64,000 nt of DNA from Nitrospiraceae bacterium (lineage in GTDB: Bacteria; Nitrospirota; Nitrospiria; Nitrospirales; UBA2166): assembly GCA_002726235.1 (NCBI GenBank), contig PBSN01000013.1, positions 1 through 64,000 on the forward strand, written 5' to 3'. This document shows positions 2,647-64,000 of this stretch, one piece after another. Under the pieces are notes generated by a model. The model ran no database searches and had not been told where the DNA came from. It saw nothing but the letters and a program-made list of their open reading frames with translations. Each line of letters starts with the position of its first letter. The stretch's first letter is position 1. The translations under genes and the position numbers were made by a program.

Positions 2647-2697
2647 CCCAACAGCGACTAATGGCAATCAAAGCGTGAAGGAGGGTAGATAAGATAC

Positions 2698-3198: not shown

Positions 3199-3360
3199 GG
3201 TAGTAATGCTGATGTGCACTACGTTTGGTGCGTGATATCGACCGTGCATTGCCCATGGACTACTCGGTGTCTCGTCGCAGTTTGAAGCATGTGGTAAGGC
3301 TCTAGTGAGAGTCGTGCGCGCATTTCATTTCAGTTGTGAACTAGAGTTAAGGGATAGAGC

Positions 3361-4131: not shown

Positions 4132-4166
4132 GGCCGTTTTTGTGATGGACATGTGAGAGGAATGCG

Positions 4167-5741
4167 GTGAAGCGGTACGTAGTTGTAGGGCTTGGGATTG
4201 TCGGGATGGTGTTGGCGGTCACAGGGCTAGCGCTAAATGATCTCGCGCTTCTTCCGACCTGGGGCGTGACGGGAATTGCTGCCCTTGCCCTTGGATGTTT
4301 AATCACCTTTTTCATCCTGCATTTTGAAACCGTCAAGACTTTCTCAGCTCAGCGTTCAACGCGCCTCGGATTCAACAGTATCCTCATGGTGCTGCTTTTT
4401 CTTGGAATTCTTGAAGTCATCAATTTTCTCAATGCCAGGCATCCTCTCCGGATTGATCTCTCGGAAAGTAAAGAATTTACCGTTGCCCACCAAACTCGTG
4501 GGGTGTTGGAGAGTCTTGTGGAGCCAATGACCATTACCGCGTTCTCGAAGGAAGGAAGTAAGGGGGCAACACGGTATCGTAGTATTCTGGATACCTACCG
4601 GTATCATACCGATTACATTACATACACCGTGGCAGATCCTGATAAAAAACCCGCACTTGCGCGAAAATATGGCATTACAAAATTTGACACCGCTATTCTT
4701 GAAAGTGGCGATCGAACAACGGAAGTGATCGCGCCCACTGAACAAGCATTAACCAATGGGATTATTCGTGTGAGTCGGACAGACAAGACGTCCGTTCGTT
4801 TTCTCGTTGGCCACGGTGAGCCGGGGTTGGATGACACCGGAAAACAGGGGTATTCCATGCTCAAGGCATCCATAGAAAACACTGGGTATGACGTCTCCAC
4901 GATTTCGTCTCTTCAGGATGACCTATTTTCTGATCGTGACTCAGTGCTTGTTATCGCAGGACCTCGGCGCATGTTTACTGACGATGAACTTGTGCAGGTC
5001 CAGAAATACATTCTAAAAAAGCGACGGCTCTTGCTGCTTCTGGACCCGGTATTGCAACCTGAAACCAATACTGGCCTTGAACCCCTTCTGGCTGTTCGTG
5101 GTGTGAGTTTGGGCAATGGCGTCATCATGGACCCGGAATCGAGGCTGTCTGGGGCAGAGGCCACGATACCTATTGTTACGTCGTATCCAGAACACGAGAT
5201 TACCCACCAGTTTGATCTGGCAACCTTTTTTCCGCTGGCACGGCCTCTGCTGTTTGACACGGCGGGTGATGCCAGCGCACAGAGCGATTGGGATATTGAT
5301 CCTCTTGCGAATACCAATGCCACCAGTTGGGAGGAGCATGACTTGCAGTCGGCCGATGATGCAACGTTTGACGCTGCCACTGATATCAAAGGGCCGCTTA
5401 CAGTTGCTGTGGCAGTGGCGCCGAAGAAAATTTTCGGACATGGAGGCGTGGAATTAAAAAATACGGATAGATCTCCCACCATGGTTGTCATCGGCGATTC
5501 GGATTTTGTTACCAATGCGTCCGTGAATTTTTCCGGNAATCGCGATTTTTTTCTCCATGCACTCCACTGGTTGGCTGAAAGGGGGAATCTGATATCCATC
5601 TCTCCAACAGTGGCGTCGTTCACGCCGATGGTTTTGACGAGAAACCAATTGCAAATAGTATTGTACGTCCAGGTCCTCCTTCTTCCTGGTGTTGTGTTTG
5701 GTCTTGGGGCCTATGTATGGCAGCGCCGCCGTCGCTTGTAG
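4167..5741 (+). CDS. GldG-family ABC transporter auxiliary component
   Basis: N-terminal TMs, RIDLSE..F, EQALTNGI, FLVGHGE, VVIGDSDF, N.DFFL.ALHWL, C-terminal TM followed by RRRR. Confidence 0.88.
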   Translation: MKRYVVVGLGIVGMVLAVTGLALNDLALLPTWGVTGIAALALGCLITFFILHFETVKTFSAQRSTRLGFNSILMVLLFLGILEVINFLNARHPLRIDLSESKEFTVAHQTRGVLESLVEPMTITAFSKEGSKGATRYRSILDTYRYHTDYITYTVADPDKKPALARKYGITKFDTAILESGDRTTEVIAPTEQALTNGIIRVSRTDKTSVRFLVGHGEPGLDDTGKQGYSMLKASIENTGYDVSTISSLQDDLFSDRDSVLVIAGPRRMFTDDELVQVQKYILKKRRLLLLLDPVLQPETNTGLEPLLAVRGVSLGNGVIMDPESRLSGAEATIPIVTSYPEHEITHQFDLATFFPLARPLLFDTAGDASAQSDWDIDPLANTNATSWEEHDLQSADDATFDAATDIKGPLTVAVAVAPKKIFGHGGVELKNTDRSPTMVVIGDSDFVTNASVNFSXNRDFFLHALHWLAERGNLISISPTVASFTPMVLTRNQLQIVLYVQVLLLPGVVFGLGAYVWQRRRRL

Positions 5742-5744
5742 CAA

Positions 5745-5870
5745 GTGGACGGTGGAAATGCTCTCCCGTGAGTTCGTGTTTCTTTGTCATGCTCACGTTC
5801 CTACCTAGGACGCTCAGTGTACTAACGCAGCGTTGGCTATGCCGGCAGGGGTTTTTAAGCATTCCCTCAT
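5745..5870 (+). repeat. Degenerate intergenic repeat copy
   Basis: TTGTCATGCTCACGT core and TTTTTAAGCATTCC end resemble the copies at 37.4 and 41.5 kb. Confidence 0.5.
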
Positions 5871-5927
5871 GTCCAGCAATGAGCGCATACGACTTAGTGG
5901 TGCCTGCATGACCCTACGGTTCATCAG

Positions 5928-7283
5928 ATGAAACCGTATGTTGCGACCTTTGTGTTTGGCGGGCTACTCCTTCTTGCTCTGCTGTATCTGTATGCGGTTG
6001 AGTTTCCTGACGCTCACCGAAAAGCCGAAGAGGAAAAACGTGCGAAGCAACTAGTCAGCTTTCAGAGCGATGATGTTCGCAGTATGACGCTTCAATATCG
6101 TGACCAAGATGCGATTAATCTCGAAAAAAGGCCGGGTGGTCAGTGGTGGTTGATGAAGCCTGGACTCTACCGGGCGGATCATACTGAAGTCGAAGATATC
6201 ATTCGAGATCTGGCGCTCGCGAACGTGGTACGGATCATTAACGAATCAGGCAACGATCTTGGTGATTATGGGTTGGTGCCACCTCAGCTGACCTTGTCAT
6301 TGACGCTGAAAGATCGAGACGAACAGTTGCTGATTGGAGAAAAAGGACCGATATCGTCGCAGCTTTATTTCAAGCGAACATCAGAACCTCAGGTTTATTT
6401 AACCAATCTCCCTGATCGGGACATCCTTGCGAAAACTCCCTATCTTCTCCGCAGGAAAGAGTTGTTTGAGGTTGATCGGGAAAACGTTGATCGGCTGAGG
6501 CTTGAGTATCAAACGGGCATGGTTTCCTTGTTCAAAACGGCACACACATGGTTTCTCGATGCACCCATTGAGTTTCTTGCTGACCAATCTGAGATCGGAG
6601 CGTTGCTCTTTCAGATCGAGAATCTCAAGGCTGGGAAGTTCATTGATGATGTGGAGGAGCAAAAGAGAATACGTGCACAATTTGGCGTGCCACAACTCGT
6701 CATCCATCTGCAAGCTAACAATCGCCCGCATGCGGTAAAGTTTTTCGCGAGTGCGAATGACTCGGAGTGGATCTACGCAGCAACAACGCCCGACTTTCCA
6801 GTTTTTCTCGTTTCCCGTGCGGCGATTCAAGGAATTCCAAATACGCTGTTTGCGTTTCGCAATAAGCATCTTGTCGTTGTCGATCGTTCTCTCGTGACGC
6901 ATCTCGCACTGACAACACCGGATCAGCAACTTGTCTTGCCACTGGAGCCTGCGGAGCAGCCTATGCCCCATCCCGTTCGAGAATTTATGAATCGCGTGCT
7001 AAGCATACAAGCGGAGATACCAATCCAGGATAATGTCGAGGCCGATGATTTTCTCGCGCTCGGGCTTGATACGCCTGCACTCGAGGTGAAGTTATTGGGG
7101 AGCGGAGGAACTGTTCTCGGCTCTCTTGTTGTGAGCGAGATTCTTGCCGTCGAGGAAGAGGGGCAAGCCGGTTCTGCAAATGCGAGAGGGTCTGCTCTCC
7201 CCGGAGTCTACGGAATCCGGTCCAGTATCTTGGTTAGCATTCCGACGGAAGCTGACCTCACGGTTCCAGTCATGATGCCGTGA
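5928..7283 (+). CDS. DUF4340 domain-containing protein
   Basis: N-terminal TM, repeated W...P....AD / YGL..P modules; usual last gene of GldFG-type clusters. Confidence 0.8.
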   Translation: MKPYVATFVFGGLLLLALLYLYAVEFPDAHRKAEEEKRAKQLVSFQSDDVRSMTLQYRDQDAINLEKRPGGQWWLMKPGLYRADHTEVEDIIRDLALANVVRIINESGNDLGDYGLVPPQLTLSLTLKDRDEQLLIGEKGPISSQLYFKRTSEPQVYLTNLPDRDILAKTPYLLRRKELFEVDRENVDRLRLEYQTGMVSLFKTAHTWFLDAPIEFLADQSEIGALLFQIENLKAGKFIDDVEEQKRIRAQFGVPQLVIHLQANNRPHAVKFFASANDSEWIYAATTPDFPVFLVSRAAIQGIPNTLFAFRNKHLVVVDRSLVTHLALTTPDQQLVLPLEPAEQPMPHPVREFMNRVLSIQAEIPIQDNVEADDFLALGLDTPALEVKLLGSGGTVLGSLVVSEILAVEEEGQAGSANARGSALPGVYGIRSSILVSIPTEADLTVPVMMP

Positions 7284-7307
7284 ACGAACAGCGTTGATCA
7301 CTGGTAT

Positions 7308-8081
7308 GTGGTGATGCGAGACGGTGATCCGCCTTATGACGATGATCTGATTGTTGGAGTACATCCACTCAAAGAAGCTCTCCGCACAGTCAATGTGCGA
7401 CTAGACCAAGTAATCATTCGGCAGGGCTCCCGCAATCGTCAGCATGAAGAAATACGGCGCTTGGCAAAGCACGCGTGCGTTCCCGTCAAACTTGTTCCGA
7501 GCGAAGCGTTGGACCGCTTGGCTCGGTCGCCCAAGCATCAGGGCGTTCTTGGCTATGTCTCGCAAAAAGTGTATGTGTCGTTTGATGCCTTATTGGAGGA
7601 AGTGGGAATGGCCGAGGTGTCCCCGTTTTTGCTTGTGCTGGATGGGGTAGAAGATCCAAGAAATATGGGAGCCATCATTCGGACTGCTGAGGGTGCTGGA
7701 GTCAGCGGGGTGGTCGTGCCTGATCGGCGCGCTGTTGGTATGACAAGCGTTGTAGCCAGGGCTTCTGCTGGTGCTCTTGAACACGCTACCGTAGCGCGGG
7801 TTGCCAATCTGTCACAAAGCATTGAGCGACTTAAATCAAATGGGGTATGGGTGTATGGCCTTGATCCTCATGCAGCCAAGAGTTACCTCGACCTTGACTA
7901 TCGCGGTCCAATTGCGATTGTCGTTGGTGGTGAGGGGAGAGGGATTCGTCCTGGGCTTCTCAAGCAGTGCGATGATCGCGTGGCAATTCCAATGCAGGGA
8001 ACAGTGTCGTCCCTTAATGTGTCGGTTGCCGCCGCAGTTCTGTTCTACGAAGTTGTTCGGCAACGAGGGGGTTCGGAATGA
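7308..8081 (+). CDS. rlmB: 23S rRNA Gm2251 methyltransferase (SpoU/TrmH family)
   Basis: HQGV, LDGVEDPRNMGAIIRTA, GGEGRG, IPMQGTVSSLNVSVA. Confidence 0.93.
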   Translation: MVMRDGDPPYDDDLIVGVHPLKEALRTVNVRLDQVIIRQGSRNRQHEEIRRLAKHACVPVKLVPSEALDRLARSPKHQGVLGYVSQKVYVSFDALLEEVGMAEVSPFLLVLDGVEDPRNMGAIIRTAEGAGVSGVVVPDRRAVGMTSVVARASAGALEHATVARVANLSQSIERLKSNGVWVYGLDPHAAKSYLDLDYRGPIAIVVGGEGRGIRPGLLKQCDDRVAIPMQGTVSSLNVSVAAAVLFYEVVRQRGGSE

Positions 8082-8121
8082 CCTGTCGGTGCACGGATAG
8101 GTTTAACGGAGAGGTGCATCA

Positions 8122-8913
8122 GTGGTCGGCAGCATTGCAGTAGTGACATTCGCATTTGGCGCTATTGTGGGAAGCTTTCTCAATGTGTGCATTCACCGCC
8201 TTCCTCGCGGCATGTCAGTGGTTCGTCCTGCGTCACATTGTCCCGCTTGTCAGAGGCCTCTTCGCGCTACGGAGAATATTCCTTTTTTTAGCTTTCTCGT
8301 GTTGCGTGGTCGGTGCCGGCATTGCAATGTGAAAATCTCATGGCGCTATCCGTTTGTTGAGGGACTGAACGGTCTTGCGTATGTGTTGGTCGTGAAGCAG
8401 TTTGGATTCGAGCCTGCCACATTTGTCTACGCACTGTTGCTTTCGGCGCTGATCGTTGTCACCTTCATTGATCTTGATCATCAGATTATTCCAAATGAAA
8501 TTACATACCCTGGCATGCTATTAGGGCTCCTTGCCGCGGTCACGGTGCTTCCTATCAGTTGGTGGGATTCGTTGGGAGGGTTGCTGTGCGGAGGAGGCGT
8601 ATTGCTCTTCGTTGTTTGGATCAGCCCCTATATTTTCGGACGTGAGGGCATGGGCTTAGGAGATGTCAAGCTTCTTGCGATGTTAGGGGCCTTTCTCGGC
8701 TGGCAAGCCACGTTGCTCACGTTGCTATTGGCTGCGTTTTCTGGATCGATGGTAGGACTGACGTTGGCCGTTACGAAACTCATCACACTCAAGGATCCAA
8801 TTCCATTCGGGCCTTTTCTCGCGCTGGGTGCGACATTGGCGCTCTTTTTTGGCGCAGGACTTATCGACTGGTATACCGGATTGTTCGAGGTCGAGGGTTT
8901 TAGGTTTCGGTGA
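8122..8913 (+). CDS. pilD: Prepilin peptidase / N-methyltransferase (A24)
   Basis: GSFLNVCIHRLP, two CxxC pairs, FIDLDHQIIP, GMGLGDVKL, IPFGPFLA. Confidence 0.95.
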   Translation: MVGSIAVVTFAFGAIVGSFLNVCIHRLPRGMSVVRPASHCPACQRPLRATENIPFFSFLVLRGRCRHCNVKISWRYPFVEGLNGLAYVLVVKQFGFEPATFVYALLLSALIVVTFIDLDHQIIPNEITYPGMLLGLLAAVTVLPISWWDSLGGLLCGGGVLLFVVWISPYIFGREGMGLGDVKLLAMLGAFLGWQATLLTLLLAAFSGSMVGLTLAVTKLITLKDPIPFGPFLALGATLALFFGAGLIDWYTGLFEVEGFRFR

Positions 8914-50701: not shown

Positions 50702-53548
50702 TTGCCTGAGATTTCAAAGAACGTCCACGAGTCCAGACCTCGGACTCCTGCTGAGGCTTTCATGAATCGGCACACTCAGGCAAATCAGAGTCAGATGGAC
50801 AGTGATGTACGTGCGTTACTCGCCGAGTTGCAGAAGGTCTCCAAAAGAAGTTGCGAAGAATGTATCCAGTCGCTTCCGGCAGCTCTCGAACGATGTGACA
50901 TTAAGGTTATCCGTCTATGGATTGATCTTGGAATTGAAATTGCTTCCAGCTCTGGGGCAACAGGGATACGCTATTTCAAAGAAAGCCTTGCATTTCTTAT
51001 CGCGCTTAAAAAAGCAGAACATCAAGAGCGTGTATTGACGGCAGCCATACAGATGATCAATGTTGATGACGATGCCAAAGGTGCGGGGGCATGTCTTGCG
51101 TTCGAGTGTGTGCGTAGGGGGGGCGTGGCTGTTGGTGTTCTTGCGGAAACGAGTCTTGATGAATGGATGGCGATCGGGATGGATATTGGGAAGTGGAATA
51201 CCCTTGCTGCCGTCGAGTACTTCCGAGAAAGTCCGGCCGTCTTGCAGGTTATTCCGTTCGATCATCTCAAGCGATGGGCTGAATGCGGGATCAAACTGGT
51301 CACCACGAATCAATTTGATAATTTTGATTACTTGTTGACGGTAGAGTTCTTTCGAATGACGTCACAGATTTTCAGTGCGATTCCAGAATTGGAGATGCGC
51401 TTACGGGTGCTGGACTATGGGAATCAGCTTGCTGATCAAAGTCCACATGTTGCAATGGCGTTCTTGAAACAGAGTCCGAATGCCGTGGCGGCAATTATCC
51501 AGGTTCCGGAGGGTTGCTCGGCTGATGAAGAAGTCAGCCTGCGAGAAGAAGGCAATGCACGGTTTGAACAGTGGGTTAGTGCTGGAATGCAGGCGCTCGA
51601 ATACAGCGTGGAAGCGGCACGAGCCTACTTCGCGTATGAAAGCCGTTGGGCATTGGTCTCCATTGAACGGGCCATGAGCGGCGTGTCTATTCAGACAATG
51701 CGTCGATCCTTGCGGTTGCTTGTGACCGGTCTGAGCGGGAAAGACATACGTATTGAAACTCATCGTGCTCATGCTACCGCGTCGACCTCATCCGCAATGA
51801 CGGAATGTCCGGTTGAGCAACCTAGGGTTGAGCGTCCCCCATGCCTTCAGGATACAGTGGACTCCATTGTGCTTCCATCGGTTCTCAATTCCTATCCACG
51901 AAAAAGTGACAATGCGCGCTTATATCGTGTGATGGCCGCACATAAGGCCGGACATTTCGAATTTGGGACGCATGAATTGCGCATCGACTCTCTACGCGAC
52001 CTTGTCGCGGACCTTCACTCTCGCTATGGCCAGAGTCATTGGCCTGCCTCGGTGTGGGAGGTCTTTGCATTGTACCCCTCCCCTGCGCTGGCTCAAGATT
52101 TGTGGATGATTGTCGAGGACGCGCGAGTCGATTCACGACTCGCGCGAGAATACCCTGGTCTTCGTCGTGACATGGATCGTGTCGTGAAAGAAGCGGTAAT
52201 CCAACGCCCGCTGTTCCAGTCAGGATCATTGCGTGACATGGTGGTTGAAGCCTTAATGCGTATGTCCGTCAATCAATCGACTGATGGGATTCCAGCGTCA
52301 TGCCAGGAAATTCTTGATCAAGCTCGCCCCATGTTTGCCGAGGTGCAGGATGTGCGTACGACATGCGAAGTCGCACTTCGAATGGCCGATCGCCTGTATA
52401 GGTTGCTCGATGTTCTGAGTCCCATGGACTCGTCTTTGTCTGAGACGGCGAGTTTAGTACCAGACTCCCAAGGCTCACAGCCAGACGAGGGTGATCACAC
52501 TCAGCAGGGGAATGGATTCGCCTATCACCAGGTCACCAATTTGGCCCATCGTGGTGTTGCACAGTCCGTTCCCAATGAGGGGGTCGAATTTCTGGATCGC
52601 CAAATCCTCGAGGTTGATGCTTTCCAAGATGAGGAGACTTCAGACTCTCAGCGGGTGTTTCATTATGATGAGTGGGATGCGACGCTTGGCGATTATCGGT
52701 CTCGTTGGTGCAGAGTTGTTGAAGACGTAGGGGAAGCGAAAGCCGGAGGTGAGGCCTTCGTGGCGCGAACGTTGGCGGATCATCAATGGACAATTCAGCG
52801 GCTTCGTAAATATTTCGAAGGCATTCGACCGAGTGCACTCCGGTGGGTAAAGAACCAGCTCGACGGCGAAAATGTCGATATGGATGCAGCAATTGATTGG
52901 CTTGCAGAGCGACGGGCACATCGGGCTCCATCGGATCGCGTATTCATGAATCGCGAAATGCGTGTGAGGAACGTGTCTGCGGCTGTGCTGATGGATATGA
53001 GTGGTTCGACAAACCGACTGTTAGATCCCAATGGAAAACGCGTCATCGAGGTCGAAAAAGAAGCGCTGATTCTTCTATGCGAAGCTTTGGAGGCGCTTGG
53101 AGATCGCTACGCGATCTATGGGTTCTCTGGCCGATCTCGCCACGATGTCCGGTTCACCATTCTGAAAGAATTTGATCATGTCTACGATAGTAGATGCAAA
53201 CAACGAATTGGCGCGATTGAGCCGGTACATCAGAACCGAGATGGGGTTGCCATACGCCATGCGGTGGCAAAGCTGCGTCATGAGCGTGCAAAGGTCAAAC
53301 TTCTTTTACTGTTGAGTGACGGGAGGCCGCTGGATGACCAGTATGAACGCGATTATGCGCTTGAGGACACACGAATGGCGTTGCTCGAGGCCAAACGATT
53401 AGGGATTCATCCGTTTTGTGTGACGATTGATCGTGAAGCACCCACCTATCTGAGTCGGATGTGTGGTGAAGTTGGGTTTATGGTGGTTGATCAAGTCGGC
53501 CGTCTGCCGGATTGCCTGCCGCACATTTACCGGCGTTTGACAACATGA
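50702..53548 (+). CDS. NorD/CbbO-like VWA domain protein with long helical N-terminal region
   Basis: YDEWD...DY, DMSGST MIDAS, EKEAL, NRDGVAIRH, LSDGRPLD, PFCVTID; start uncertain (alternative 50762). Confidence 0.88.
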   Translation: MPEISKNVHESRPRTPAEAFMNRHTQANQSQMDSDVRALLAELQKVSKRSCEECIQSLPAALERCDIKVIRLWIDLGIEIASSSGATGIRYFKESLAFLIALKKAEHQERVLTAAIQMINVDDDAKGAGACLAFECVRRGGVAVGVLAETSLDEWMAIGMDIGKWNTLAAVEYFRESPAVLQVIPFDHLKRWAECGIKLVTTNQFDNFDYLLTVEFFRMTSQIFSAIPELEMRLRVLDYGNQLADQSPHVAMAFLKQSPNAVAAIIQVPEGCSADEEVSLREEGNARFEQWVSAGMQALEYSVEAARAYFAYESRWALVSIERAMSGVSIQTMRRSLRLLVTGLSGKDIRIETHRAHATASTSSAMTECPVEQPRVERPPCLQDTVDSIVLPSVLNSYPRKSDNARLYRVMAAHKAGHFEFGTHELRIDSLRDLVADLHSRYGQSHWPASVWEVFALYPSPALAQDLWMIVEDARVDSRLAREYPGLRRDMDRVVKEAVIQRPLFQSGSLRDMVVEALMRMSVNQSTDGIPASCQEILDQARPMFAEVQDVRTTCEVALRMADRLYRLLDVLSPMDSSLSETASLVPDSQGSQPDEGDHTQQGNGFAYHQVTNLAHRGVAQSVPNEGVEFLDRQILEVDAFQDEETSDSQRVFHYDEWDATLGDYRSRWCRVVEDVGEAKAGGEAFVARTLADHQWTIQRLRKYFEGIRPSALRWVKNQLDGENVDMDAAIDWLAERRAHRAPSDRVFMNREMRVRNVSAAVLMDMSGSTNRLLDPNGKRVIEVEKEALILLCEALEALGDRYAIYGFSGRSRHDVRFTILKEFDHVYDSRCKQRIGAIEPVHQNRDGVAIRHAVAKLRHERAKVKLLLLLSDGRPLDDQYERDYALEDTRMALLEAKRLGIHPFCVTIDREAPTYLSRMCGEVGFMVVDQVGRLPDCLPHIYRRLTT

Positions 53549-58477: not shown

Positions 58478-60013
58478 ATGAGCATACATAACTGGAAAGT
58501 AGTGAGTAGCTTGGTGTTGGCCATGCTTCTGGCTTTCGGCGTCGGGACGGCTTTCGGCGCAGCCAAGATGGAGCTGGGCGACGATGGTTACACCGTTCCG
58601 GTGACCGACAATACGTTTGGGTTCTGGGACGAGGGATACGCGAGCTATACGGGCACTGACAATCCGAACATTGTCGCGATTCCGTTGGCGCAGGTTTTGA
58701 CGCCATTGCCGCAGGGTGCAGCTAGTGCCACACGGAACAAAGATGGTAGCGGTGAAGGCTACACCATTGGCAAATGGACGTATTGGGCGGGTGAATATAG
58801 CGATCTCCATCCCATTGAAGAAGCGGGAACTCCGTTGCCGCCAAATGAAATGGGTGTGCCGACCATGTTGAAGGCCGTTCTGGGTGAGAAAGCCTTCTTT
58901 GATGGGCGGTATTCCGGGGACACCAGCACGCCGTGTTCCAAGTGTCATGATCCGGCCCAGGGCTTCGGAACCTTCGACGACGTGTCGACGGGGTATCCGA
59001 GCATCATTCACTGGCGGAACAGCCATACGACCATGAACAACGCATGGCACGACAAGTTTTTCTGGGATGGACGGGCCTTGGCCTTGGACAGTCAGGCAGA
59101 GGGCGCCAACACGGGCTCAGGCTTAGCCGGCAATGCGACGTCCGAGCACATGCTCCCGCGGCATTTCCAATCTGATGAGTACACCATTGGTTTTTTCCAG
59201 GAGTGGAATGCTCCTCCATCCATTGCAAAGATTGACTGGGCCATCGACATCTACGAGCGGATCACACGGTCGGATCCCAACGTCGTCCCGTTTGATATGT
59301 GGATGAACGGCGATGAAGATGCCATTTCCGATGAAGCCAAGCGGGGCGCTGAGCTCTTCAACGGCGAATGGGATTGTGTGCGTTGCCACTTTGGCCCGCA
59401 TGGCGTGGGGACCCAGGATTTCTATAGCTTAGGGTTGCCGCGTATTGCTTCTTTTGACGATGATCCGTTACGCCAAGAAACAGTCCGCTACATCGACTAT
59501 GGAGCCGGTATGCATGGCATCATGGATTGGGACTTGGACTATTTCGATGACCTCGGCATCGGTATGCGGACACACTTGAAACAAGATTTGATGCATCTCA
59601 AAACCCAGCAGTTGCGTGAACTCTGCGTAACCATGCCGTACTTCCATCAGGGTACCCACAATGACCTGGATGAAGTGGTGCGGTTCCACCTGCATGGTGG
59701 CGGCAATCCGTACCTTAAGGATGCGGACGGTCGTGGGGCTGACTTTGCTGGTTGGCGCCATGAGGGTCGCGAGGGTGAAGATCCTGGACCTGGTACCGGC
59801 GGTTTCCCTGGTACGGTGAACTACGACCGCCCTGGGAAGAAAGGTGCCAACATGAAAGTGATCAATGACCCCGCTGATGAGGATGTCGACGCCATGGTGG
59901 CGTTCTTGGAGTCCATGTGCACGCCGGAAGAAGAGGGCAGTGCTCCGTGGACGGAGCGGAAGGTGTCAGTTCCGAGATATTCACCACCGCTCTATACGGG
60001 ACCTCAACCGTAA
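58478..60013 (+). CDS. Periplasmic di-heme cytochrome c peroxidase/MauG-family protein (IdrP-like position)
   Basis: Sec signal; LGE.AFFD.R.SGD, CSKCH, FFWDGRA, AKRGAELF, CVRCH, LREL..T.PYFH.G. Confidence 0.9.
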   Translation: MSIHNWKVVSSLVLAMLLAFGVGTAFGAAKMELGDDGYTVPVTDNTFGFWDEGYASYTGTDNPNIVAIPLAQVLTPLPQGAASATRNKDGSGEGYTIGKWTYWAGEYSDLHPIEEAGTPLPPNEMGVPTMLKAVLGEKAFFDGRYSGDTSTPCSKCHDPAQGFGTFDDVSTGYPSIIHWRNSHTTMNNAWHDKFFWDGRALALDSQAEGANTGSGLAGNATSEHMLPRHFQSDEYTIGFFQEWNAPPSIAKIDWAIDIYERITRSDPNVVPFDMWMNGDEDAISDEAKRGAELFNGEWDCVRCHFGPHGVGTQDFYSLGLPRIASFDDDPLRQETVRYIDYGAGMHGIMDWDLDYFDDLGIGMRTHLKQDLMHLKTQQLRELCVTMPYFHQGTHNDLDEVVRFHLHGGGNPYLKDADGRGADFAGWRHEGREGEDPGPGTGGFPGTVNYDRPGKKGANMKVINDPADEDVDAMVAFLESMCTPEEEGSAPWTERKVSVPRYSPPLYTGPQP

Positions 60014-60078
60014 CAACGCTTGAGCGAATTGGAAATCAAGAAGACACTTATTAACCTCGTTAGTGAGGAGGGCATCGG

Positions 60079-60660
60079 ATGGAAGTTAAGAAGAAAGAAA
60101 TAGCCGAAGAGCCCGAAGATTGTGGCTGTGGCGTGACGCGACGCCAGGTCATGGTTGGGGCAGCAGTCGGTACGGCAGCCCTTGCGGCGTCGGGTCTTGT
60201 GACCGGCAAGCCGGCGATTGCAGGAAGTATGGACGGATACCCAAGGAAGTTGATTGGTACGGTGAGCGGTCTTTCGACTGACCAGCCGCAGGTGTTCACG
60301 TATCCTCAGGATGCTCCATCGATTTTCCGGTCTGCGCTCGTAAAGCTCGGCGTTCCGGCGGTTGATGGTGTTGGCCCTGAAGGTGATATCGTGGCCTTTA
60401 ACGGGCGATGCCCTCATCAGGGTGGCGAGCTCGTTCCTGAAGACGACACTCTTCGGTACGATGGGGCGTCGAAAACCATGGGTCCGTGCCCGTGGCACCT
60501 TTCAACATTTGACGTGAGCAATGAAGGTATGATCACCAGTGCTCATTCCACCCAAAACCTGCCACAGATCGTGTTGGAGGTTGAGGGGGACAACATTTAC
60601 GCAGTTGGTGTAAAGGGGCTCATTTACGGGATGCCCTCCAACTTGATGCAAGTGAGCTAA
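60079..60660 (+). CDS. Tat-exported Rieske [2Fe-2S] small subunit, AioB/IdrB family
   Basis: TRRQVM Tat motif; FTYP, GVGPEGDIVAF, CPHQG, CPWH.STFD, TQNLPQIVLE, IYAVGVKGLIYG. Confidence 0.93.
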   Translation: MEVKKKEIAEEPEDCGCGVTRRQVMVGAAVGTAALAASGLVTGKPAIAGSMDGYPRKLIGTVSGLSTDQPQVFTYPQDAPSIFRSALVKLGVPAVDGVGPEGDIVAFNGRCPHQGGELVPEDDTLRYDGASKTMGPCPWHLSTFDVSNEGMITSAHSTQNLPQIVLEVEGDNIYAVGVKGLIYGMPSNLMQVS

Positions 60661-60672
60661 GGAGGGGAACTC

Positions 60673-63366
60673 ATGGCAGGAACAAGCTTCAGTAATGTAG
60701 GGTTCGCGAAAGACGAACCTACTGATAAGGTACCCCTTCCTCCGAAAGATGCGAAGGTGTATCCGACGGCCTGCGATTACTGCATCGTTGGCTGTGCCTA
60801 TAAAGCGTTTGTATGGCCTAAGGGAACCGAAGGCGGCCCGGCGGCTGGCGACAATGCCTACGGCGTTGATTTTCCGCGGGTGGATGCACTGGCGGGTTGG
60901 TGGCCAACCCCCAACCAGTACAATGAAGCCTACATTGACGGCAAGCTCCACAGTATTGTCGTAATTCCTGATGGCAATGCCACGGTAGTGAACCGTGCTG
61001 GAAACCACAGTATTCGTGGTGGAGCAATTGCGCAGAAAATTTACAATCCCAACAAGGGCACTCGGGATCGGCTTCAGACCCCGATGATGCGGGTTGGGAA
61101 TTATCACCTTCCGGTGTCTTGGGACACCGCGACGCGTGTGGCCGGTGAATTGATGCGCTACACCGTCAATGAGTTTGGGGAGCTGGCGTTGACCGGAAAG
61201 GTCGGCAGCTATATTTTCTGGGAAAATACCTATGCCTGGACCAAGCTCATGATGCAGCAGTTCGAGACCATGATGGTTGCGCACCATGATAAGCCGTCAT
61301 GGAGTTTCGGGGCGGATAGTTCCGCCATGTCGGCGCTCGGTATCAATGCGTTTGCGCCGGCCTATGATGATTACTCCACGGCAGAGGTGATCTTCTCGTC
61401 CGGTACGGATTCTTACGAGGATCATACCGTGCTCTGGACGGAGTGGATTCAGCAGGCGGAGCCGACCATGATTTATGTGCTTCCGCGTCAATCGAAGGGT
61501 GTGCCGTGGGCACTTTCCCGTGGTGGTGTGTACCTTGAAGTTTATCCTGGTACCGACGTTCCGGTTATGAACGCGATCTCTCGCGTGATTATTGAGAATG
61601 GCTGGTATGACAAGAGCTGGCTCAATTATCACGGTGTGACCCGTCATGACATTAATGCGGGCATGGGACGTGGAAAGCGGAATAGCCACAAGCAGTGGCG
61701 TACTACCAAATGGGGACTGACGCTGTCTGAGTTCAAGCAGTTCATCCTCAATGACGAATTTTCAACGTTAGAGGCTGCAGAGAAGATTGCCGGCGTTAAA
61801 CGTGCCGATATCGTTCGAGCGGCTGAAATTATGGCGAAGCCGAAGCCAGATGGTTCGCGGACCAAGACCTCGTTCTTGAATGAGAAGGGGAACTATTGGT
61901 CGAACAATTGGCTGAACAACGCGGGCTTTGTGAACTTGGCGTTCTTGTGCGGCGCTGGGACTCGTCTCGGTCAGGTCATCGGCCGTGGTGGTGGACACCA
62001 ACGTGGCATGATTCAGGGAAGCAAGTTCCTTTCGCATAAATCGCCTAACCGTTATGGGCAGAATACTCGAGTTGCTGGCGATGTCGACCAGTGGGTGCAG
62101 GCCGGCCATGCCCGTTTCTTCTACCTGACGGCTTGTCAGTGGACCAACTGTAGCTGCGCTGCAAGCGACCTGTCGGAAACCATTGCGGATCAGACAGTCA
62201 GAATGCCGCAGCAGCTCCAAAGTACCGATGCCGATCATGCGATTCAGGTCTTAAAAGAAAGAATGCAGAATCGTGGGTTGGTGCTGGTGCATCAAGACGT
62301 GTATGCCCGTGATGTCACTGAGATGGCGGATATCGTTTTGCCTGCCGCACAGTGGGGCGAGGCTGACTTGACGCGTGCTCAGGGTGAGCGGCGTATGCGT
62401 GCGTACAGTAAGTTCACCGATCCTCCCGGAGATGCCAAGCCGGACTGGTGGATTACACAAAAGATTGGGCAGTATGCAGGGTTTGGGGCAAACGGCTTTA
62501 ACTGGAAGACCAACCGCGACGTGTTGAAAGAAGCCGCGCGTTATTCCAGAAAGGGCGTGTTGGAGTATGCCCCGCTGATTCGGTACACCACCCGCTTGAA
62601 AGCGGATCCGTTCAAGTTCATCCAGTCCTTGGGGTCGACAGGTTTGCAGACGCCCATTCGGTTGGACTTGGGCAAGTTGGTTGGAACCAAAAAGCTCCAC
62701 TATGAATCTGCGCCGCAGATGCGTCACGAAGAGAACACCACGCACCACAAAAAGCTGTTCAACTGGTTCACCTTCTCCACAGGGAAGGCGATGTTCTTCA
62801 AGACCGATTGGCGGCTGTTCTCTGATTACTTTGAGCGGATTAAACCACGCGGTGATGAACTGTGGGTGACCAACGGCCGCGTGAATGAAATCTGGCAGTC
62901 CTTGTATGACGATCTTCGTCGTCCATATATCATGCAGCGGTATCCGATGAACTTCATCGAGATGCATAAAGACGATGCTGCCGCGCGTGGTATTGAGACG
63001 GGCGATCTCGTCGCGGTCGAAAACGATGACCTGCTGATTCAAACCGGTGGTCAGTTCGGTGTCCGCGATGAAGACTCGCTCTTTACGGGGCTGATGAAGA
63101 ATGGGCACATCAAACGGTCTCGTGCCGCTCTGACCGCTATGGCTGTTGTGAATACCGACGTCAAGAAGGGCGTCACCTTCATGTACTTCCTGTGGCCAGG
63201 GTCTTCGTTTAACAGCTTGATGCATGCTGTTCCGGATCCGATTACTGCTGCTCCGCGGTATAAGACTGCGAAGGGCCGGATTCGTAAGATCGGTGAGACG
63301 GCTGCGAAGCGGAGCGGGATCCTCAGGGGTCTTGAGCACAAAAACACCATGCCGGAATGGGCCTAA
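60673..63366 (+). CDS. Molybdopterin oxidoreductase large subunit, AioA/IdrA family (substrate unknown)
   Basis: VPLPP, C34-x2-C37-x3-C41-x71-S113 (CDYCIVGC...HSIRGG), EKG..W, RGGGHQ, VLPAA.WGE, GERRMR, TNGRVNE.WQ; no signal peptide. Confidence 0.92.
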   Translation: MAGTSFSNVGFAKDEPTDKVPLPPKDAKVYPTACDYCIVGCAYKAFVWPKGTEGGPAAGDNAYGVDFPRVDALAGWWPTPNQYNEAYIDGKLHSIVVIPDGNATVVNRAGNHSIRGGAIAQKIYNPNKGTRDRLQTPMMRVGNYHLPVSWDTATRVAGELMRYTVNEFGELALTGKVGSYIFWENTYAWTKLMMQQFETMMVAHHDKPSWSFGADSSAMSALGINAFAPAYDDYSTAEVIFSSGTDSYEDHTVLWTEWIQQAEPTMIYVLPRQSKGVPWALSRGGVYLEVYPGTDVPVMNAISRVIIENGWYDKSWLNYHGVTRHDINAGMGRGKRNSHKQWRTTKWGLTLSEFKQFILNDEFSTLEAAEKIAGVKRADIVRAAEIMAKPKPDGSRTKTSFLNEKGNYWSNNWLNNAGFVNLAFLCGAGTRLGQVIGRGGGHQRGMIQGSKFLSHKSPNRYGQNTRVAGDVDQWVQAGHARFFYLTACQWTNCSCAASDLSETIADQTVRMPQQLQSTDADHAIQVLKERMQNRGLVLVHQDVYARDVTEMADIVLPAAQWGEADLTRAQGERRMRAYSKFTDPPGDAKPDWWITQKIGQYAGFGANGFNWKTNRDVLKEAARYSRKGVLEYAPLIRYTTRLKADPFKFIQSLGSTGLQTPIRLDLGKLVGTKKLHYESAPQMRHEENTTHHKKLFNWFTFSTGKAMFFKTDWRLFSDYFERIKPRGDELWVTNGRVNEIWQSLYDDLRRPYIMQRYPMNFIEMHKDDAAARGIETGDLVAVENDDLLIQTGGQFGVRDEDSLFTGLMKNGHIKRSRAALTAMAVVNTDVKKGVTFMYFLWPGSSFNSLMHAVPDPITAAPRYKTAKGRIRKIGETAAKRSGILRGLEHKNTMPEWA

Positions 63367-63419
63367 CATCACCCTATTGAGGTATGTGATTAACACGCAA
63401 CGTGACATATGGACTGGTG

Positions 63420-63451
63420 CCTTGCGAGGAGGCAGTATTCTCCTCGCAAGG
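63420..63451 (+). other. Stem-loop without U-tract between the large subunit and the next gene
   Basis: CCTTGCGAGGAG-GCAGTATT-CTCCTCGCAAGG, 12-bp stem. Confidence 0.7.
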
Positions 63452-63527
63452 GCCTGGTTCGTGCATGAAATTAACTTTCGCAACTACAGTGTTTCGAGTT
63501 AGAGAAAGAGGGGAGGATCTAAGTCAC

Positions 63528-64000
63528 ATGAAAAAGCTACTTACACTTGCGGTGGCCGGCGTCTTTTTAGCCTTTGGCTTTGCCGCGACTGCGGATGCGC
63601 AGATTAAAAAACCAGGTTTCCAGAAAAAAGCTCCAAAAATGCCGAAGACGGCTTATGCTGAAGGTTCCGCTGGCGGCGGATCTGTGGCCGGGAAAGTGTC
63701 CTACTCTGGCAAGGTGCCGGATCCAAAGCCGTTTACCATCAGCAAAAATCCTGAAGTTTGTGGAATTGAAGGCAGTGGAAAAGCAACGAGTGGCGGCCAG
63801 CAGTACTCTACAGAGGGCCAGCGAGTCTTCCACTTCACCTATGCGCCGGGCGGTGTCGCACAGCATGCTGTTGTCTTCATCGAGGGCATTGAAACCGGCA
63901 AGCCGTGGGGCGATTTTGGCGCAAAGATGGACATTCGTGCCGAGGATTGCGCATTTCTTGAGTACCAGAACCTCGTCCGTGACGGAACCACCGTGTTTGA
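63528..64000 (+). CDS. Secreted protein, carboxypeptidase-regulatory-like/beta-sandwich type (3' truncated; not in ORF track)
   Basis: GGGAGG RBS; MKKLLTLAVAGVFLAFGFAATADA signal; GGSVAGKVSYSG, KNPEVCG, HAVVFIEGIETGKP, DCAF; frame open to window end. Confidence 0.8.
   Translation, partial: MKKLLTLAVAGVFLAFGFAATADAQIKKPGFQKKAPKMPKTAYAEGSAGGGSVAGKVSYSGKVPDPKPFTISKNPEVCGIEGSGKATSGGQQYSTEGQRVFHFTYAPGGVAQHAVVFIEGIETGKPWGDFGAKMDIRAEDCAFLEYQNLVRDGTTVF

What the first reader, a model, noticed from the sequence alone, without database searches (positions are those of the whole stretch)
58478..64000. Candidate undescribed periplasmic redox system: peroxidase + Rieske + AioA/IdrA-like molybdoenzyme + secreted partner
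Seen: four co-oriented genes with RBSs, in the order di-heme peroxidase-like, Tat-Rieske, Mo-bisPGD large subunit, secreted beta-sandwich protein. Known: arsenite oxidase is aioBA, usually near aioXSR, ars or phosphate genes; dissimilatory iodate reductase is idrA-idrB-idrP1-idrP2, with two peroxidases downstream. This locus has one visible peroxidase placed upstream, B-before-A order and no arsenic genes in the window. Inference: it belongs to an uncharacterised sister clade of Aio/Idr acting on an oxyanion or halogen species (for example iodine, chlorine or antimony compounds), with the di-heme protein as electron relay or remover of reactive intermediates. The host looks Nitrospirota-like.
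Basis: partly seen in the sequence, partly recalled or inferred. Interest (0 to 1): 0.9.

Follow-up and report, generated by a model that had tools for sequence, protein, structure and literature searches.

The report
Rearranged iodate-reductase-type cluster in Nitrospirales
A small-genome marine Nitrospirales bacterium carries a reshuffled version of the known bacterial iodate-reductase gene set with a built-in blue-copper electron carrier; it belongs to an untested sister branch shared with Nitrospinota, so the kind of system is known but this branch and its hosts are new.

Summary
The four genes are real, co-oriented and each has an RBS. The contig runs 25 kb beyond the window, and the cluster continues there with a second di-haem peroxidase-like gene and a mono-haem cytochrome c.

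The locus is not a new sister of Aio and Idr together. It is an iodate-reductase-type (idr) cluster.
- The 897-aa subunit is 41-52% identical to peroxidase-linked IdrA-like proteins. One of these is from Azonexus hydrophilus NCP973, an isolated iodate respirer. Identity to bona fide AioA is only 26-30%.
- In two trees it sits in a Nitrospirota/Nitrospinota clade. That clade is sister to the crown holding the IdrA types I identified with tested ones (β-proteobacterial; SAR324- and α-proteobacterial types matched by taxon only).
- It has Idr-type motifs (H-DKP, HQRG), not the AioA ones (H-NRP, HQEG).
- The upstream peroxidase is the IdrP1 ortholog and the downstream one the IdrP2 ortholog. The order is P1-B-A-X-P2-cytc instead of P2-P1-B-A.
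- The "β-sandwich" protein X contains a cupredoxin domain with invariant His/Cys/His/Met ligands, and it recurs in about a quarter to a third of idr loci.
- RNA-library contigs from three studies cover the cluster.

Most likely function: periplasmic iodate reduction. The substrate is untested in this clade. Verdict: a new variant of a known kind, of moderate interest.

The parts
58478..60013 (+). IdrP1-type di-haem cytochrome c peroxidase/MauG-family protein (511 aa; Sec signal; CxxCH at C153 and C300)
   Evidence: Pfam CCP_MauG, E 1.1e-24. Its best solved relatives are bacterial di-haem CCPs, at only 62-79 bits. In the P tree it falls in the B-proximal orthogroup, which is IdrP1 by the DN11 accession order. 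dN/dS is 0.13 against L008.
60079..60660 (+). IdrB-type Tat-exported Rieske [2Fe-2S] small subunit (193 aa)
   Evidence: Pfam Rieske and NCBIfam TAT_signal_seq hits, and arsenite_ox_S at 97.5 bits. Motif C111-x-H113-x23-C137-x2-H140, with the Tat signal TRRQVM. It scores 109-166 bits against the B genes of distinct Idr-like loci (380-381 against the two 91%-identical relatives L007/L008) and 50-89 bits against AioB.
60673..63366 (+). IdrA-type Mo-bisPGD catalytic subunit with an N-terminal [3Fe-4S] site (897 aa, no signal peptide)
   Evidence: Pfam Rieske_3, Molybdopterin and Molydop_binding. [3Fe-4S] motif C34-x2-C37-x3-C41-x71-S113. Identity is 43.8% to the Azonexus NCP973 IdrA and 26-30% to AioA. 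Trees. Idr-type motifs H-DKP and HQRG. dN/dS 0.03-0.06.
63528..64000 (+). First 157 codons of gene X, which continues to C13:64409 (293 aa). It is a secreted three-domain protein whose central domain (residues 127-233) is a type-1 copper cupredoxin. Beyond the window, on the same strand, lie the IdrP2-type di-haem protein (C13:64444-65775, 443 aa) and a mono-haem cytochrome c (C13:65919-66410, 163 aa).
   Evidence: - X alignment of 27 homologs: H167, C219, H222 and M225 are invariant.
- AF2 model: pLDDT 82.6, pTM 0.83.
- Foldseek top hits are amicyanin and other cupredoxins, probability 1.00.
- VIA-align: Z 11.5, rmsd 1.9 Å over 85 residues to Cupredoxin_1 4hcf, model range 129-232.
- All 27 of 27 members hit CarboxypepD_reg at E up to 0.1 (best 1.3e-9; the query's own hit, E 0.012, lies at residues 241-281).
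- P2: CCP_MauG, E 1.6e-22. Cytochrome c: Cytochrome_CBB3, E 1.9e-7.
- P2 falls in the B-distal (IdrP2) orthogroup with 99% support.

Best explanation
This is a periplasmic iodate-reductase-type (Idr) respiratory module of an uncultured small-genome marine Nitrospirales bacterium.

**Shown.** There are six co-oriented genes in the order idrP1-idrB-idrA-X-idrP2-cytc, and each is orthologous to or resembles its named family.

**Inferred from the tested Idr systems.**
- IdrB carries IdrA to the periplasm by the Tat route.
- The Mo-bisPGD site of IdrA reduces IO3- to HIO, which goes on to I-.
- Electrons reach the Mo site through the Rieske [2Fe-2S] and [3Fe-4S] centres.
- The two di-haem proteins IdrP1 and IdrP2 co-purify with IdrAB in tested strains. 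They would remove H2O2 or another reactive by-product, or pass electrons.

**Inferred here.** The cupredoxin X and the cytochrome c are the high-potential carriers that bring electrons from the quinol-oxidising chain to the enzyme.

The [X-idrP2] pair lies upstream of idrP1 in some other phyla. In this clade it has moved downstream of idrA.
For: **1. Similarity is bimodal.**
- In plasmids, 2 of 40 listed records reach 42.6-43.8% identity: Azonexus hydrophilus NCP973 and Thiothrix. The other 38 are AioA-type at 26.2-29.6%, among them NT-26 and Thermus HB8.
- PDB AioA chains score only 242-256 bits.
- NCP973 is an isolated iodate respirer (PMC13455634; passages read).

**2. Synteny.**
- At least two CCP-like genes lie within 2.3 kb of B-A in 67 of 70 eligible Idr-like loci, and in 0 of 27 eligible AioA loci.
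- None of the 47 AioA loci has any P or X hit.

**3. Trees.**
- FastTree (105 rows) and IQ-TREE LG+C20 (56 rows x 854 columns) agree.
- The AioA clade has 100% support.
- The query clade (100%) is sister to a crown (99%), and the two are joined at 99%. The crown holds the β-proteobacterial (Azonexus), SAR324 and α-proteobacterial IdrA.

**4. Residues.**
- Of 23 columns that separate AioA from crown IdrA, the query-clade consensus matches the crown in 20, AioA in 2 and neither in 1.
- The query has HH-DKP and HQRG, as IdrA does. AioA has IH-NRP and HQEG.
- The query keeps 156 of 164 columns that are nearly invariant in the other Idr-like rows.

**5. Both peroxidase paralogs are kept.** The upstream gene is in the B-proximal orthogroup. 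The downstream gene joins the B-distal orthogroup with 99% support.

**6. Selection.** dN/dS is 0.03-0.13 in eight of the nine gene comparisons, covering all six genes, against two 91%-identical relatives. In the ninth (X against L007) dS was too saturated to compute; elsewhere it is close to saturation.

**7. RNA libraries.**
- 7 of the 20 runs that hold the stretch are RNA libraries.
- 65% of the laid contigs match at 99% or more.
- Contigs from 4 RNA runs of 3 studies cover L005 ~200-8700. One contig spans B-A-X.

**8. Published tests.**
- idr clusters from SAR324 and α-proteobacterial OMZ MAGs reduced iodate when expressed in E. coli (PMC13455634).
- Aerobic marine bacteria with idr reduce iodate under O2 limitation (PMC11445184, abstract).
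Against: - No member of the 9- to 14-row query clade has been tested.
- The clade lies outside the smallest clade that holds the tested IdrA types.
- An AU test rejects joining it to the β-type IdrA (p 0.0021, ΔlnL 40). The group was named after the tree had been seen.
- The lineage of this genome sits on a long branch: 0.59-0.68 changes per column for A, and 1.0-1.45 for the two P proteins.
- The query itself matches the crown at only 16 of 23 signature columns, AioA at 3 and neither at 4. It differs at 8 of 164 near-invariant Idr columns.
- The σ54 regulator, histidine kinase and moaA that flank the Azonexus cluster are absent here.
- The host's electron donors are unclear. I found no NarG/NarH-type enzyme, no [NiFe] hydrogenase above cut-off, no SoxB and no haem-copper oxidase. 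There are two bd-like oxidases, in a genome estimated 90.65% complete.
- RNA-library contigs cannot prove transcription, strand or level, and no silent control stretch was laid.
Confidence: 0.6

Rival explanations
1. Same machinery, different substrate. The Nitrospirota/Nitrospinota sister clade reduces another high-potential oxyanion or halogen species, such as bromate, chlorate/chlorite-type species or selenate. The peroxidases again handle a reactive by-product.
For: - The clade is a separate, 100%-supported branch outside the tested crown, and an AU test rejects joining it to the tested β-type.
- It has its own gene order with a built-in cupredoxin.
- Five columns are fixed differently from a crown that is at least 90% conserved there: query positions 42, 460, 570, 712 and 861.
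- The query lineage evolves fast.
Against: - Only 5 of about 850 columns are clade-specific, and none is among the columns aligned to the AioA substrate-binding residues.
- 20 of 23 AioA-versus-Idr signature columns follow IdrA.
- Both IdrP paralogs are retained.
- X homologs also occur in crown loci.
- The substrate range of Idr enzymes was not looked up in the papers read.
Confidence: 0.22
2. The enzyme runs as an oxidase that feeds the respiratory chain, as AioAB does. The donor would be arsenite, antimonite, iodide or another reduced species. Electrons would leave through the Rieske centre to the cupredoxin and cytochrome c, and go on to the bd-like oxidases.
For: - AioAB, the nearest characterised enzyme outside Idr, works in this direction with azurin or cytochrome c as acceptor. 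The enzyme name is from NCBIfam; the acceptor is recalled.
- The host looks like a micro-aerobe with two bd-like oxidases and no other respiratory Mo enzyme.
- The residues aligned to AioA H195, R419 and H423 are conserved. The residue numbers are recalled.
Against: - Those three residues are also conserved in tested IdrA, so they do not discriminate.
- The AioA-specific NRP, E203 and HQEG motifs are replaced as in IdrA.
- Among the genes scanned from window 50.7 kb to C13:78 kb there is no aioXSR, ars or phosphate gene.
- Peroxidase genes are absent from 47 of 47 AioA loci.
- Iodide oxidation to iodate by such carriers is energetically marginal (general knowledge).
Confidence: 0.1
3. It is an ordinary arsenite oxidase (AioBA), as automatic annotation names it.
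For: - It passes the NCBIfam equivalog cut-offs for arsenite_ox_L (428.8 vs 359) and arsenite_ox_S (97.5 vs 95.65).
- Source names of its homologs read 'arsenite oxidase' or 'arsenate reductase (azurin) large subunit'.
Against: - The same label is carried by the IdrA of the iodate respirer Azonexus NCP973, so it does not discriminate.
- Identity to AioA is 26-30%.
- The protein lies outside the 100%-supported AioA clade.
- It lacks the AioA motifs.
- It has peroxidase neighbours that 0 of 47 AioA loci have.
Confidence: 0.04

Closest known systems
Dissimilatory iodate reductase IdrABP1P2. Studied in Pseudomonas sp. SCT, Denitromonas iodatirespirans IR-12, Azoarcus sp. DN11 and Azonexus hydrophilus NCP973, and in OMZ SAR324 and α-proteobacterial MAG clusters expressed in E. 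coli.
   Same: - Tat-Rieske IdrB.
- IdrA with the CX2CX3C...S [3Fe-4S] motif and no signal peptide.
- Two Sec-exported di-haem CCP-like paralogs, orthologous to P1 and P2.
- The H-DKP and HQRG motifs.
- A c-type cytochrome downstream.
- 43.8% identity of A to the NCP973 protein.
   Different: - Gene order is P1-B-A-X-P2-cytc rather than P2-P1-B-A.
- A cupredoxin gene sits between A and P2.
- The clade is sister to, not inside, the crown of tested types.
- There is no σ54 regulator, kinase or moaA beside it.
- The hosts are Nitrospirota and Nitrospinota. These phyla are not named among idr carriers in the passages I read (PMC8692401 section 10; PMC13455634). Supplements were not seen.
- P1 is about 130 aa longer than typical P proteins, which run about 370-400 aa.
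Arsenite oxidase AioAB (Alcaligenes faecalis 1G8K, Pseudorhizobium banfieldiae NT-26 4AAY, Thermus thermophilus HB8)
   Same: - Overall architecture: a Rieske small subunit and a 3Fe-4S/Mo-bisPGD large subunit.
- Periplasmic location and high-potential centres.
- The residues aligned to H195, R419 and H423 are conserved.
   Different: - 26-30% identity.
- A separate clade.
- NRP is replaced by DKP, E203 by D, and HQEG by HQRG.
- Peroxidase genes are present.
- No aioXSR or ars genes.
Amicyanin, plastocyanin and Cupredoxin_1-type blue copper proteins
   Same: - Cupredoxin fold for X residues 127-233 (Z 8.6-11.5).
- His...Cys-x2-His-x2-Met ligand pattern. The loop spacing matches amicyanin (spacing recalled).
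   Different: - The domain is embedded between an N-terminal β domain and a C-terminal CarboxypepD_reg-like domain.
- Sequence identity is 8-21%.
- No Pfam cupredoxin hit for the query itself.
- Copper binding is untested.
Bacterial di-haem cytochrome c peroxidases, MauG and MbnH (Pfam PF03150)
   Same: Two CxxCH haems, the CCP_MauG domain and a Sec signal.
   Different: - Only 56-81 bits to solved members.
- Far below the NCBIfam MauG and MbnH cut-offs.
- The role (peroxidase, electron relay or other) is unsettled even in the tested Idr systems.

Membership tests
Idr (iodate reductase, idrABP1P2) | The large subunit groups with experimentally linked IdrA rather than with AioA. | tested here: met
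   It joins the crown holding the Azonexus NCP973 IdrA with 99% support, apart from a 100%-supported AioA clade. Identity is 43.8% against 26-30%. Caveat: it is sister to that crown, not inside it.
Idr (iodate reductase, idrABP1P2) | Two di-haem CCP-like genes (idrP1, idrP2) lie adjacent to idrBA. This is the criterion Reyes-Umana et al. used to delimit the clade. | tested here: met
   One P lies 65 nt upstream of B. One lies downstream, after X. They fall in the two orthogroups.
Idr (iodate reductase, idrABP1P2) | Canonical gene order P2-P1-B-A. | tested here: not met
   The order here is P1-B-A-X-P2-cytc. The same or a truncated form is seen in L007, L008, L009, L012, L013, L015 and L016.
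Idr (iodate reductase, idrABP1P2) | IdrA [3Fe-4S] motif CX2CX3C...S. IdrB Rieske motif CXH...CX2H with a Tat signal. | tested here: met
   A has C34, C37, C41 and S113 (x71, against x70 in DN11). B has C111/H113 and C137/H140 (x23, against x18), with TRRQVM.
Idr (iodate reductase, idrABP1P2) | A score of at least 640 bits on the IdrA profile-HMM of Reyes-Umana et al. | not tested
   That HMM is not available here (threshold read).
Idr (iodate reductase, idrABP1P2) | Iodate-reducing activity. | not testable with these tools
   Needs expression and an assay.
AioAB arsenite oxidase | The large subunit nests in the AioA clade. | tested here: not met
   It lies outside the 100%-supported AioA clade in both trees.
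AioAB arsenite oxidase | NCBIfam equivalog cut-offs TIGR02693 and TIGR02694. | tested here: met
   428.8 against 359, and 97.5 against 95.65. This does not discriminate, because the Azonexus IdrA and IdrB carry the same product names.
AioAB arsenite oxidase | Substrate-site residues H195, E203, R419 and H423 (1G8K numbering, recalled) and the flanking IH-NRP and HQEG motifs. | tested here: not met
   H, R and H are kept. E203 aligns with D215. NRP is DKP, and HQEG is HQRG. Tested IdrA-type rows look the same.
AioAB arsenite oxidase | An aioXSR, ars or phosphate-gene neighbourhood. | tested here: not met
   None among the genes scanned from window 50.7 kb to C13:78 kb. The NT-26 control locus shows aioX, the kinase, aioR and phn genes.
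Type-1 copper cupredoxin (gene X) | Cupredoxin fold. | tested here: met
   Foldseek probability 1.00 to amicyanin and other cupredoxins. Z 11.5, rmsd 1.9 Å over 85 residues to 4hcf, for residues 129-232.
Type-1 copper cupredoxin (gene X) | The His, Cys, His, Met ligand set. | tested here: met
   H167, C219, H222 and M225 are invariant in 27 of 27 homologs. Their geometry in the model was not inspected, and copper binding was not tested.

The most novel reading that the evidence does not exclude
The Nitrospirota/Nitrospinota Idr-like clade would be a respiratory iodate (or related halogen-oxyanion) reductase of marine nitrite oxidisers and their kin.

One Nitrospinaceae MAG (G004, locus L012) holds both this cluster and a type-II DMSO-reductase α subunit of the kind expected for NxrA. 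That subunit is cut off by the contig end.

If the two work together, this would be the missing enzyme for the proposed iodate-dependent, O2-independent nitrite oxidation at oxygen-minimum-zone boundaries. In the NXR-less genome of this window, the same module would give a micro-aerobe an anaerobic electron sink.
Probability: 0.15. Interest if true: 0.8.

Novelty: new variant of a known kind. Interest (0 to 1): 0.45.

Why it matters
Iodate reduction controls iodide in sea water, and through it ozone deposition and the OMZ iodine signal. The idr carriers named in the passages I read are Proteobacteria, SAR324, Planctomycetes, NC10, Rokubacteria and Lindowbacteria.

An idr-type cluster that is under purifying selection, and held in RNA libraries, in small-genome marine Nitrospirales and in Nitrospinaceae widens the set of likely iodate reducers. 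It now reaches lineages best known for nitrite oxidation.

That makes an old proposal directly testable: iodate as the oxidant for nitrite oxidation where O2 is undetectable. The proposal is cited in PMC8114937 and PMC11373643.

The recurrent cupredoxin (X) also suggests an electron carrier for Idr. The papers I searched do not mention one.

Tried and rejected
- **Promoter and terminator scan** of L005 1-10600. It found 11 promoter-like sites (8.2 ± 3.6 expected) and 7 terminator-like sites (11.0 ± 3.1 expected). This is chance level, so no operon boundaries could be drawn.
- **RNA contig cover.** There is no cover of L005 8751-9450 in X2, X7 and X13. Cover starts at about 200-320. At most this is a weak hint of a transcript running from P1 to the cytochrome c. 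No silent control stretch was laid.
- **Tested reference sequences.** A genome-contig scan with the Azonexus IdrA returned Azoarcus, Aromatoleum and other β-proteobacteria. It did not return Denitromonas IR-12 or Pseudomonas SCT by name. The tested reference in my trees is therefore NCP973 only. SAR324 (L079) and α-proteobacterial rows stand for the expressed MAG types by taxon, not by identity.
- **Host searches** in a genome estimated 90.65% complete.
  - Without a hit above cut-off: narG, narH, COX1, the NiFe hydrogenase large subunit and SoxB.
  - The narG and narH searches of related MAGs found no NxrB-like gene. They found one contig-end NxrA-like fragment, in G004.
- **The search of earlier findings** 'near' gave nothing.
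- **Gene C** has no detectable homolog (E < 1e-5) in the Azonexus locus. The two 'downstream cytochromes' are therefore not shown to be orthologs.
- **The neighbourhood of the X paralog** on C13 near 84 kb gave no informative family.
- **Complex prediction** was not used. A transient electron-carrier contact is a poor case for it.
- **The 'unknown clade'** of Reyes-Umana (Halorubrum, Dehalococcoidia GCA_002730485.1) could not be placed by name. Unnamed representatives P0122-P0131 may stand for it.


Full report
**Observation.**
- The window is C13:1-64000 of an 88,988-bp contig. The genome is a 1.87-Mb, 27-contig assembly estimated 90.65% complete.
- The four reported genes exist at the stated places on the + strand:
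  - 58478-60013 (511 aa)
  - 60079-60660 (193 aa)
  - 60673-63366 (897 aa)
  - an ORF running off the window
- The fourth gene most likely starts at the ATG at 63528, which is followed by a signal peptide. It ends at C13:64409 (293 aa).
- GGAGG-like motifs precede all the starts.
- Pfam and NCBIfam give these hits:
  - CCP_MauG for the first gene
  - Rieske plus Tat signal for the second
  - Rieske_3, Molybdopterin and Molydop_binding for the third
  - nothing above cut-off for the fourth

**Beyond the window.** All of the following are on the same strand.
- A second CCP_MauG di-haem gene (C13:64444-65775, 443 aa) starts 34 nt after gene X.
- A mono-haem cytochrome c follows (65919-66410, 163 aa).
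- Then come a 165-aa protein without a family hit and an FGE-sulfatase-domain protein.
- No chlorite dismutase or Moco gene is adjacent.
  - One Cld-family gene lies on another contig.
  - The ThiF, ThiS, JAB and PLP genes 7.5-12 kb downstream of the FGE-domain gene are on the other strand and look like a sulfur-carrier cluster.

**Which family.**
- The 897-aa protein has 957 relatives at E ≤ 1e-20 among 8000 scored candidates. One is 93% identical, the next two are 55% and 52%, and the rest of the 120 listed are 44-51%.
- In species-representative genomes, 538 stretches encode relatives. The best 80 were kept as 79 loci.
  - Two Nitrospirales/Nitrospiraceae MAGs are at 91%.
  - One Nitrospirales MAG is at 52%.
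  - Nitrospinaceae MAGs are at 47-49%.
  - Calditrichaceae, Dehalococcoidia, Planctomycetes, Methylomirabilales and many marine α- and γ-proteobacteria are at 40-48%.
- In the plasmid collection the hits are bimodal.
  - Azonexus hydrophilus NCP973 is at 43.8% and Thiothrix at 42.6%.
  - The AioA-type hits are at 26.2-29.6% (38 of the 40 listed rows; 56 records in all). They include NT-26 and Thermus HB8.
- NCP973 is an isolated iodate respirer (PMC13455634, passages).
- Its annotated locus reads σ54 regulator, ccp, ccp, small subunit, large subunit, cytochrome c, moaA. Its Idr subunits carry the same 'arsenate reductase (azurin)' names as AioAB.
- So passing the NCBIfam Aio cut-offs does not discriminate between Aio and Idr.

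**Synteny.**
- I scored the eight proteins of this locus with phmmer against all ORFs of the fetched loci.
- Loci whose A scores 650 or more nearly always have two CCP-like genes directly upstream of B-A. This holds for 67 of 70 eligible loci within 2.3 kb, and two more have one such gene.
- None of 27 eligible AioA loci has any, and none of the 47 AioA loci has any P or X hit.
- In Azoarcus sp. DN11 the accession numbers run IdrA, IdrB, IdrP1, IdrP2 (PMC10149662, passages). B precedes A in every locus.
- A FastTree of 75 P proteins separates a B-proximal from a B-distal orthogroup. The rows came from 38 hand-picked loci plus the query.
  - The upstream 511-aa gene falls in the proximal group (IdrP1).
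  - The downstream 443-aa gene joins the distal group (IdrP2) with 99% support.
- The order P1-B-A-X-P2, or its visible part on short contigs, is shared by L007, L008, L009, L012, L013, L015 and L016. These are all Nitrospirota or Nitrospinota by record title.
- Several crown loci read X-P2-P1-B-A: Calditrichaceae L010, Planctomycetes L019, L021 and L022, and γ-proteobacteria L048, L050 and L051.
- The simplest reading is that the X-P2 pair moved from upstream to downstream.

**Phylogeny.** Rows for both trees were chosen by hand before the trees were seen, dropping truncated and near-duplicate loci.
- The FastTree has 105 rows:
  - the query
  - 47 Idr-like loci
  - 13 AioA loci
  - 6 other MopB proteins as outgroup
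  - 21 representatives of 50%-identity clusters
  - 17 close hits
- The IQ-TREE run (LG+C20 PMSF, 'quick' search) has 56 rows x 854 columns.
- The two trees agree.
  - The AioA clade has 100% support.
  - Its sister lineage begins with unnamed intermediates (P0124, P0131, P0123, P0122/P0127/P0128), with long fused forms, and with two α-proteobacterial loci that lack upstream peroxidases (L029, L033).
  - A 99%-supported group follows and splits in two.
  - One half is the query clade (100%; Nitrospirales, Nitrospinaceae and unnamed metagenome proteins).
  - The other half is a crown (99%) holding the Azonexus/Azoarcus β-type, the Planctomycetes/Dehalococcoidia/Lindowbacteria-like rows, Methylomirabilales, SAR324, and α- and γ-proteobacteria.
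- An AU test rejects uniting the query clade with the β-type (p 0.0021). That group was named after the tree had been seen.
- The clade is thus a sister branch of the crown that holds the tested kinds of IdrA, well inside the peroxidase-linked lineage and far from AioA.

**Residues.**
- A has the [3Fe-4S] motif C34/C37/C41...S113. B has the Rieske motif and a Tat signal, as described for DN11.
- Of 23 columns where AioA and the crown are each at least 80% conserved but differ, the query-clade consensus follows the crown in 20, AioA in 2 and neither in 1. The query itself scores 16, 3 and 4.
- Around the residues aligned to AioA H195, E203, R419 and H423 (numbers recalled; alignment):
  - AioA rows read IH-NRP...SE and HQEG.
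  - Idr rows read H-DKP or H-DTP, and HQRG.
  - The query reads HH-DKP, D215 and HQRG.
- Only five columns are fixed differently between the query clade and a crown that is at least 90% conserved there.
- The query keeps 156 of 164 columns that are nearly invariant in the other Idr-like rows.
- dN/dS against the two 91% relatives is 0.03-0.13 in eight of the nine gene comparisons, covering all six genes. In the ninth (X against L007) dS could not be computed, and elsewhere it is close to saturation.

**Gene X.**
- Twenty-seven homologs from idr loci align with invariant H167, N168, C219, H222 and M225.
- The AlphaFold model (pLDDT 82.6, pTM 0.83) has a central domain, residues 127-233. This domain matches cupredoxins:
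  - Foldseek probability 1.00 to amicyanin, a purple cupredoxin, plastocyanin, CuA domains and AcoP.
  - VIA-align Z 11.5, rmsd 1.9 Å over 85 residues to Cupredoxin_1 4hcf. Plastocyanins, auracyanin, azurin loop variants and amicyanin score Z 8.6-9.7.
- The Cys-x2-His-x2-Met loop has the spacing I recall for amicyanin.
- The query's own CarboxypepD_reg match lies at residues 241-281 (E 0.012). All 27 of 27 members match that family at E up to 0.1, the best at 1.3e-9.
- X homologs lie within 2.9 kb of B-A in 17 of 68 eligible Idr-like loci, and within 7 kb in 10 of 30.
- The genome has two further paralogs, so the family is not confined to idr.
- I read X as a blue-copper electron carrier for the enzyme. 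This is inferred and untested.
- A full-text search for 'iodate' with 'cupredoxin' found three unrelated papers.
- Earlier AI notes of this scan made the same suggestion for idr loci in other genomes. They are not independent evidence.

**Expression and habitat.**
- Twenty public runs from 13 studies hold the stretch. One may be the source of this DNA. They are marine, sea-water, plankton and hydrothermal-vent metagenomes, and seven are RNA libraries.
- Contigs from four RNA runs of three studies cover L005 ~200-8700, from upstream of P1 to just past the cytochrome c. Of the 57 laid contigs, 47 match at 99% or more, 2 at 95-99% and 8 at 90-95%. One X2 contig spans B, A and X (2070-6406).
- Contigs show neither strand, level nor ends, and DNA carry-over is not excluded.

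**Host.**
- The only other MopB proteins found are two NuoG and one NasC-like nitrate reductase next to NirBD.
- No NarG/NarH-type (NXR-like) gene, haem-copper oxidase, [NiFe] hydrogenase above cut-off or SoxB was found. Two bd-like oxidases are present.
- The two 91% relatives also lack NarG/NarH-type hits.
- In this lineage the Idr-like enzyme is therefore the only respiratory-type Mo enzyme seen. The electron donors remain open.
- One Nitrospinaceae MAG with the cluster (G004) has a contig-end-truncated type-II DMSO-reductase α subunit (TIGR03479, 282 bits). It is a candidate NxrA and no more than that.

**Literature.**
- Reyes-Umana et al. (PMC8692401; passages and section 10 read).
  - They delimit IdrA by the adjacency of the peroxidases.
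  - They list α-, β- and γ-proteobacteria, Planctomycetaceae, Rokubacteria, Lindowbacteria and NC10.
- The 2026 OMZ study (PMC13455634, passages).
  - It adds SAR324 and α-proteobacterial MAGs.
  - It shows iodate reduction by two such clusters in E. coli.
- Searches for 'nitrospin*' or 'nitrospir*' with 'iodate reduc*' found no paper whose title or abstract points to idr genes in these phyla. The only one I opened, PMC8114937, mentions iodate as a proposed oxidant for nitrite, as does PMC11373643.
- Supplementary tables of these papers were not seen and may list such MAGs.

**Verdict.**
- This is a known kind of system, Idr, in a new variant.
  - It is on a sister branch.
  - The order is permuted.
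  - A cupredoxin is built in.
  - The hosts are Nitrospirota and Nitrospinota.
- Iodate reduction is the most likely function (0.6). A related oxyanion (0.22) or an oxidative role (0.1) is not excluded. Arsenite oxidase is unlikely (0.04).

Noticed in passing
C13:67094-67993 (beyond the window; L005:9094-9993), and L006:6245-7276 (C13:~80245-81276, - strand): An FGE-sulfatase-domain protein (Pfam E 4.4e-55) ends the co-oriented gene row. FGE-like genes also sit directly after X homologs in L046, L060 and L080, and a second FGE-domain gene lies about 13 kb downstream. From memory, this resembles NirV beside copper nitrite reductase, so it may be a copper-site maturation factor for the cupredoxin. 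Not tested.
   Followed up: partly
G000:C8:205561-206199 and C13:83967-84686: Two paralogs of cupredoxin X lie elsewhere in the genome (34% and 38% identity). The one on C13 precedes an ORF of more than 1365 aa with no Pfam hit, which runs off the contig end.
   Followed up: partly
L029, L033 (also L030, L065): These α-proteobacterial loci branch just outside the Idr crown plus query clade. They read B-A ... X with no upstream peroxidase pair. L033 has one P after X, and L029 has none in its 8-kb flanks. They may be intermediates between the peroxidase-less and peroxidase-linked forms.
   Followed up: no
P0134, P0149, P0153, P0157, P0160 and other representatives of 1100-2100 aa: These are long fused proteins whose N-terminal ~450-880 residues resemble the large subunit at 32-37% identity. 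In the tree they form a clade between AioA and Idr. Their extra domains were not examined.
   Followed up: no
G004:C10:18000-20541 (L219:3001-5541): A Nitrospinaceae MAG carrying the same P1-B-A-X-P2 cluster (L012) has a type-II DMSO-reductase α subunit cut off by the contig end (847+ aa; TIGR03479 282 bits, narG 121 bits). It is a candidate NxrA.
   Followed up: partly
window 50702-53548 (+): A 948-aa ORF with no Pfam hit at E ≤ 1e-6. Its C-terminal part looked like a von Willebrand-type domain to my eye. This was not examined.
   Followed up: no
whole genome G000: No haem-copper oxidase, but two cytochrome bd-like oxidase genes with long open frames (605 and 650 aa) that match only the first ~240 positions of the Pfam model. 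No NarG/NarH-type enzyme was found in this genome or its two closest relatives. This Nitrospirales lineage may therefore not be a nitrite oxidiser.
   Followed up: partly
C13:73507-77993 (- strand; L005:15507-19993): A cluster of a JAB-domain protein, two ThiF-family proteins, a ThiS-family protein and two PLP enzymes. It looks like a sulfur-carrier amino-acid or cofactor pathway rather than Moco genes serving the Idr-like enzyme.
   Followed up: partly
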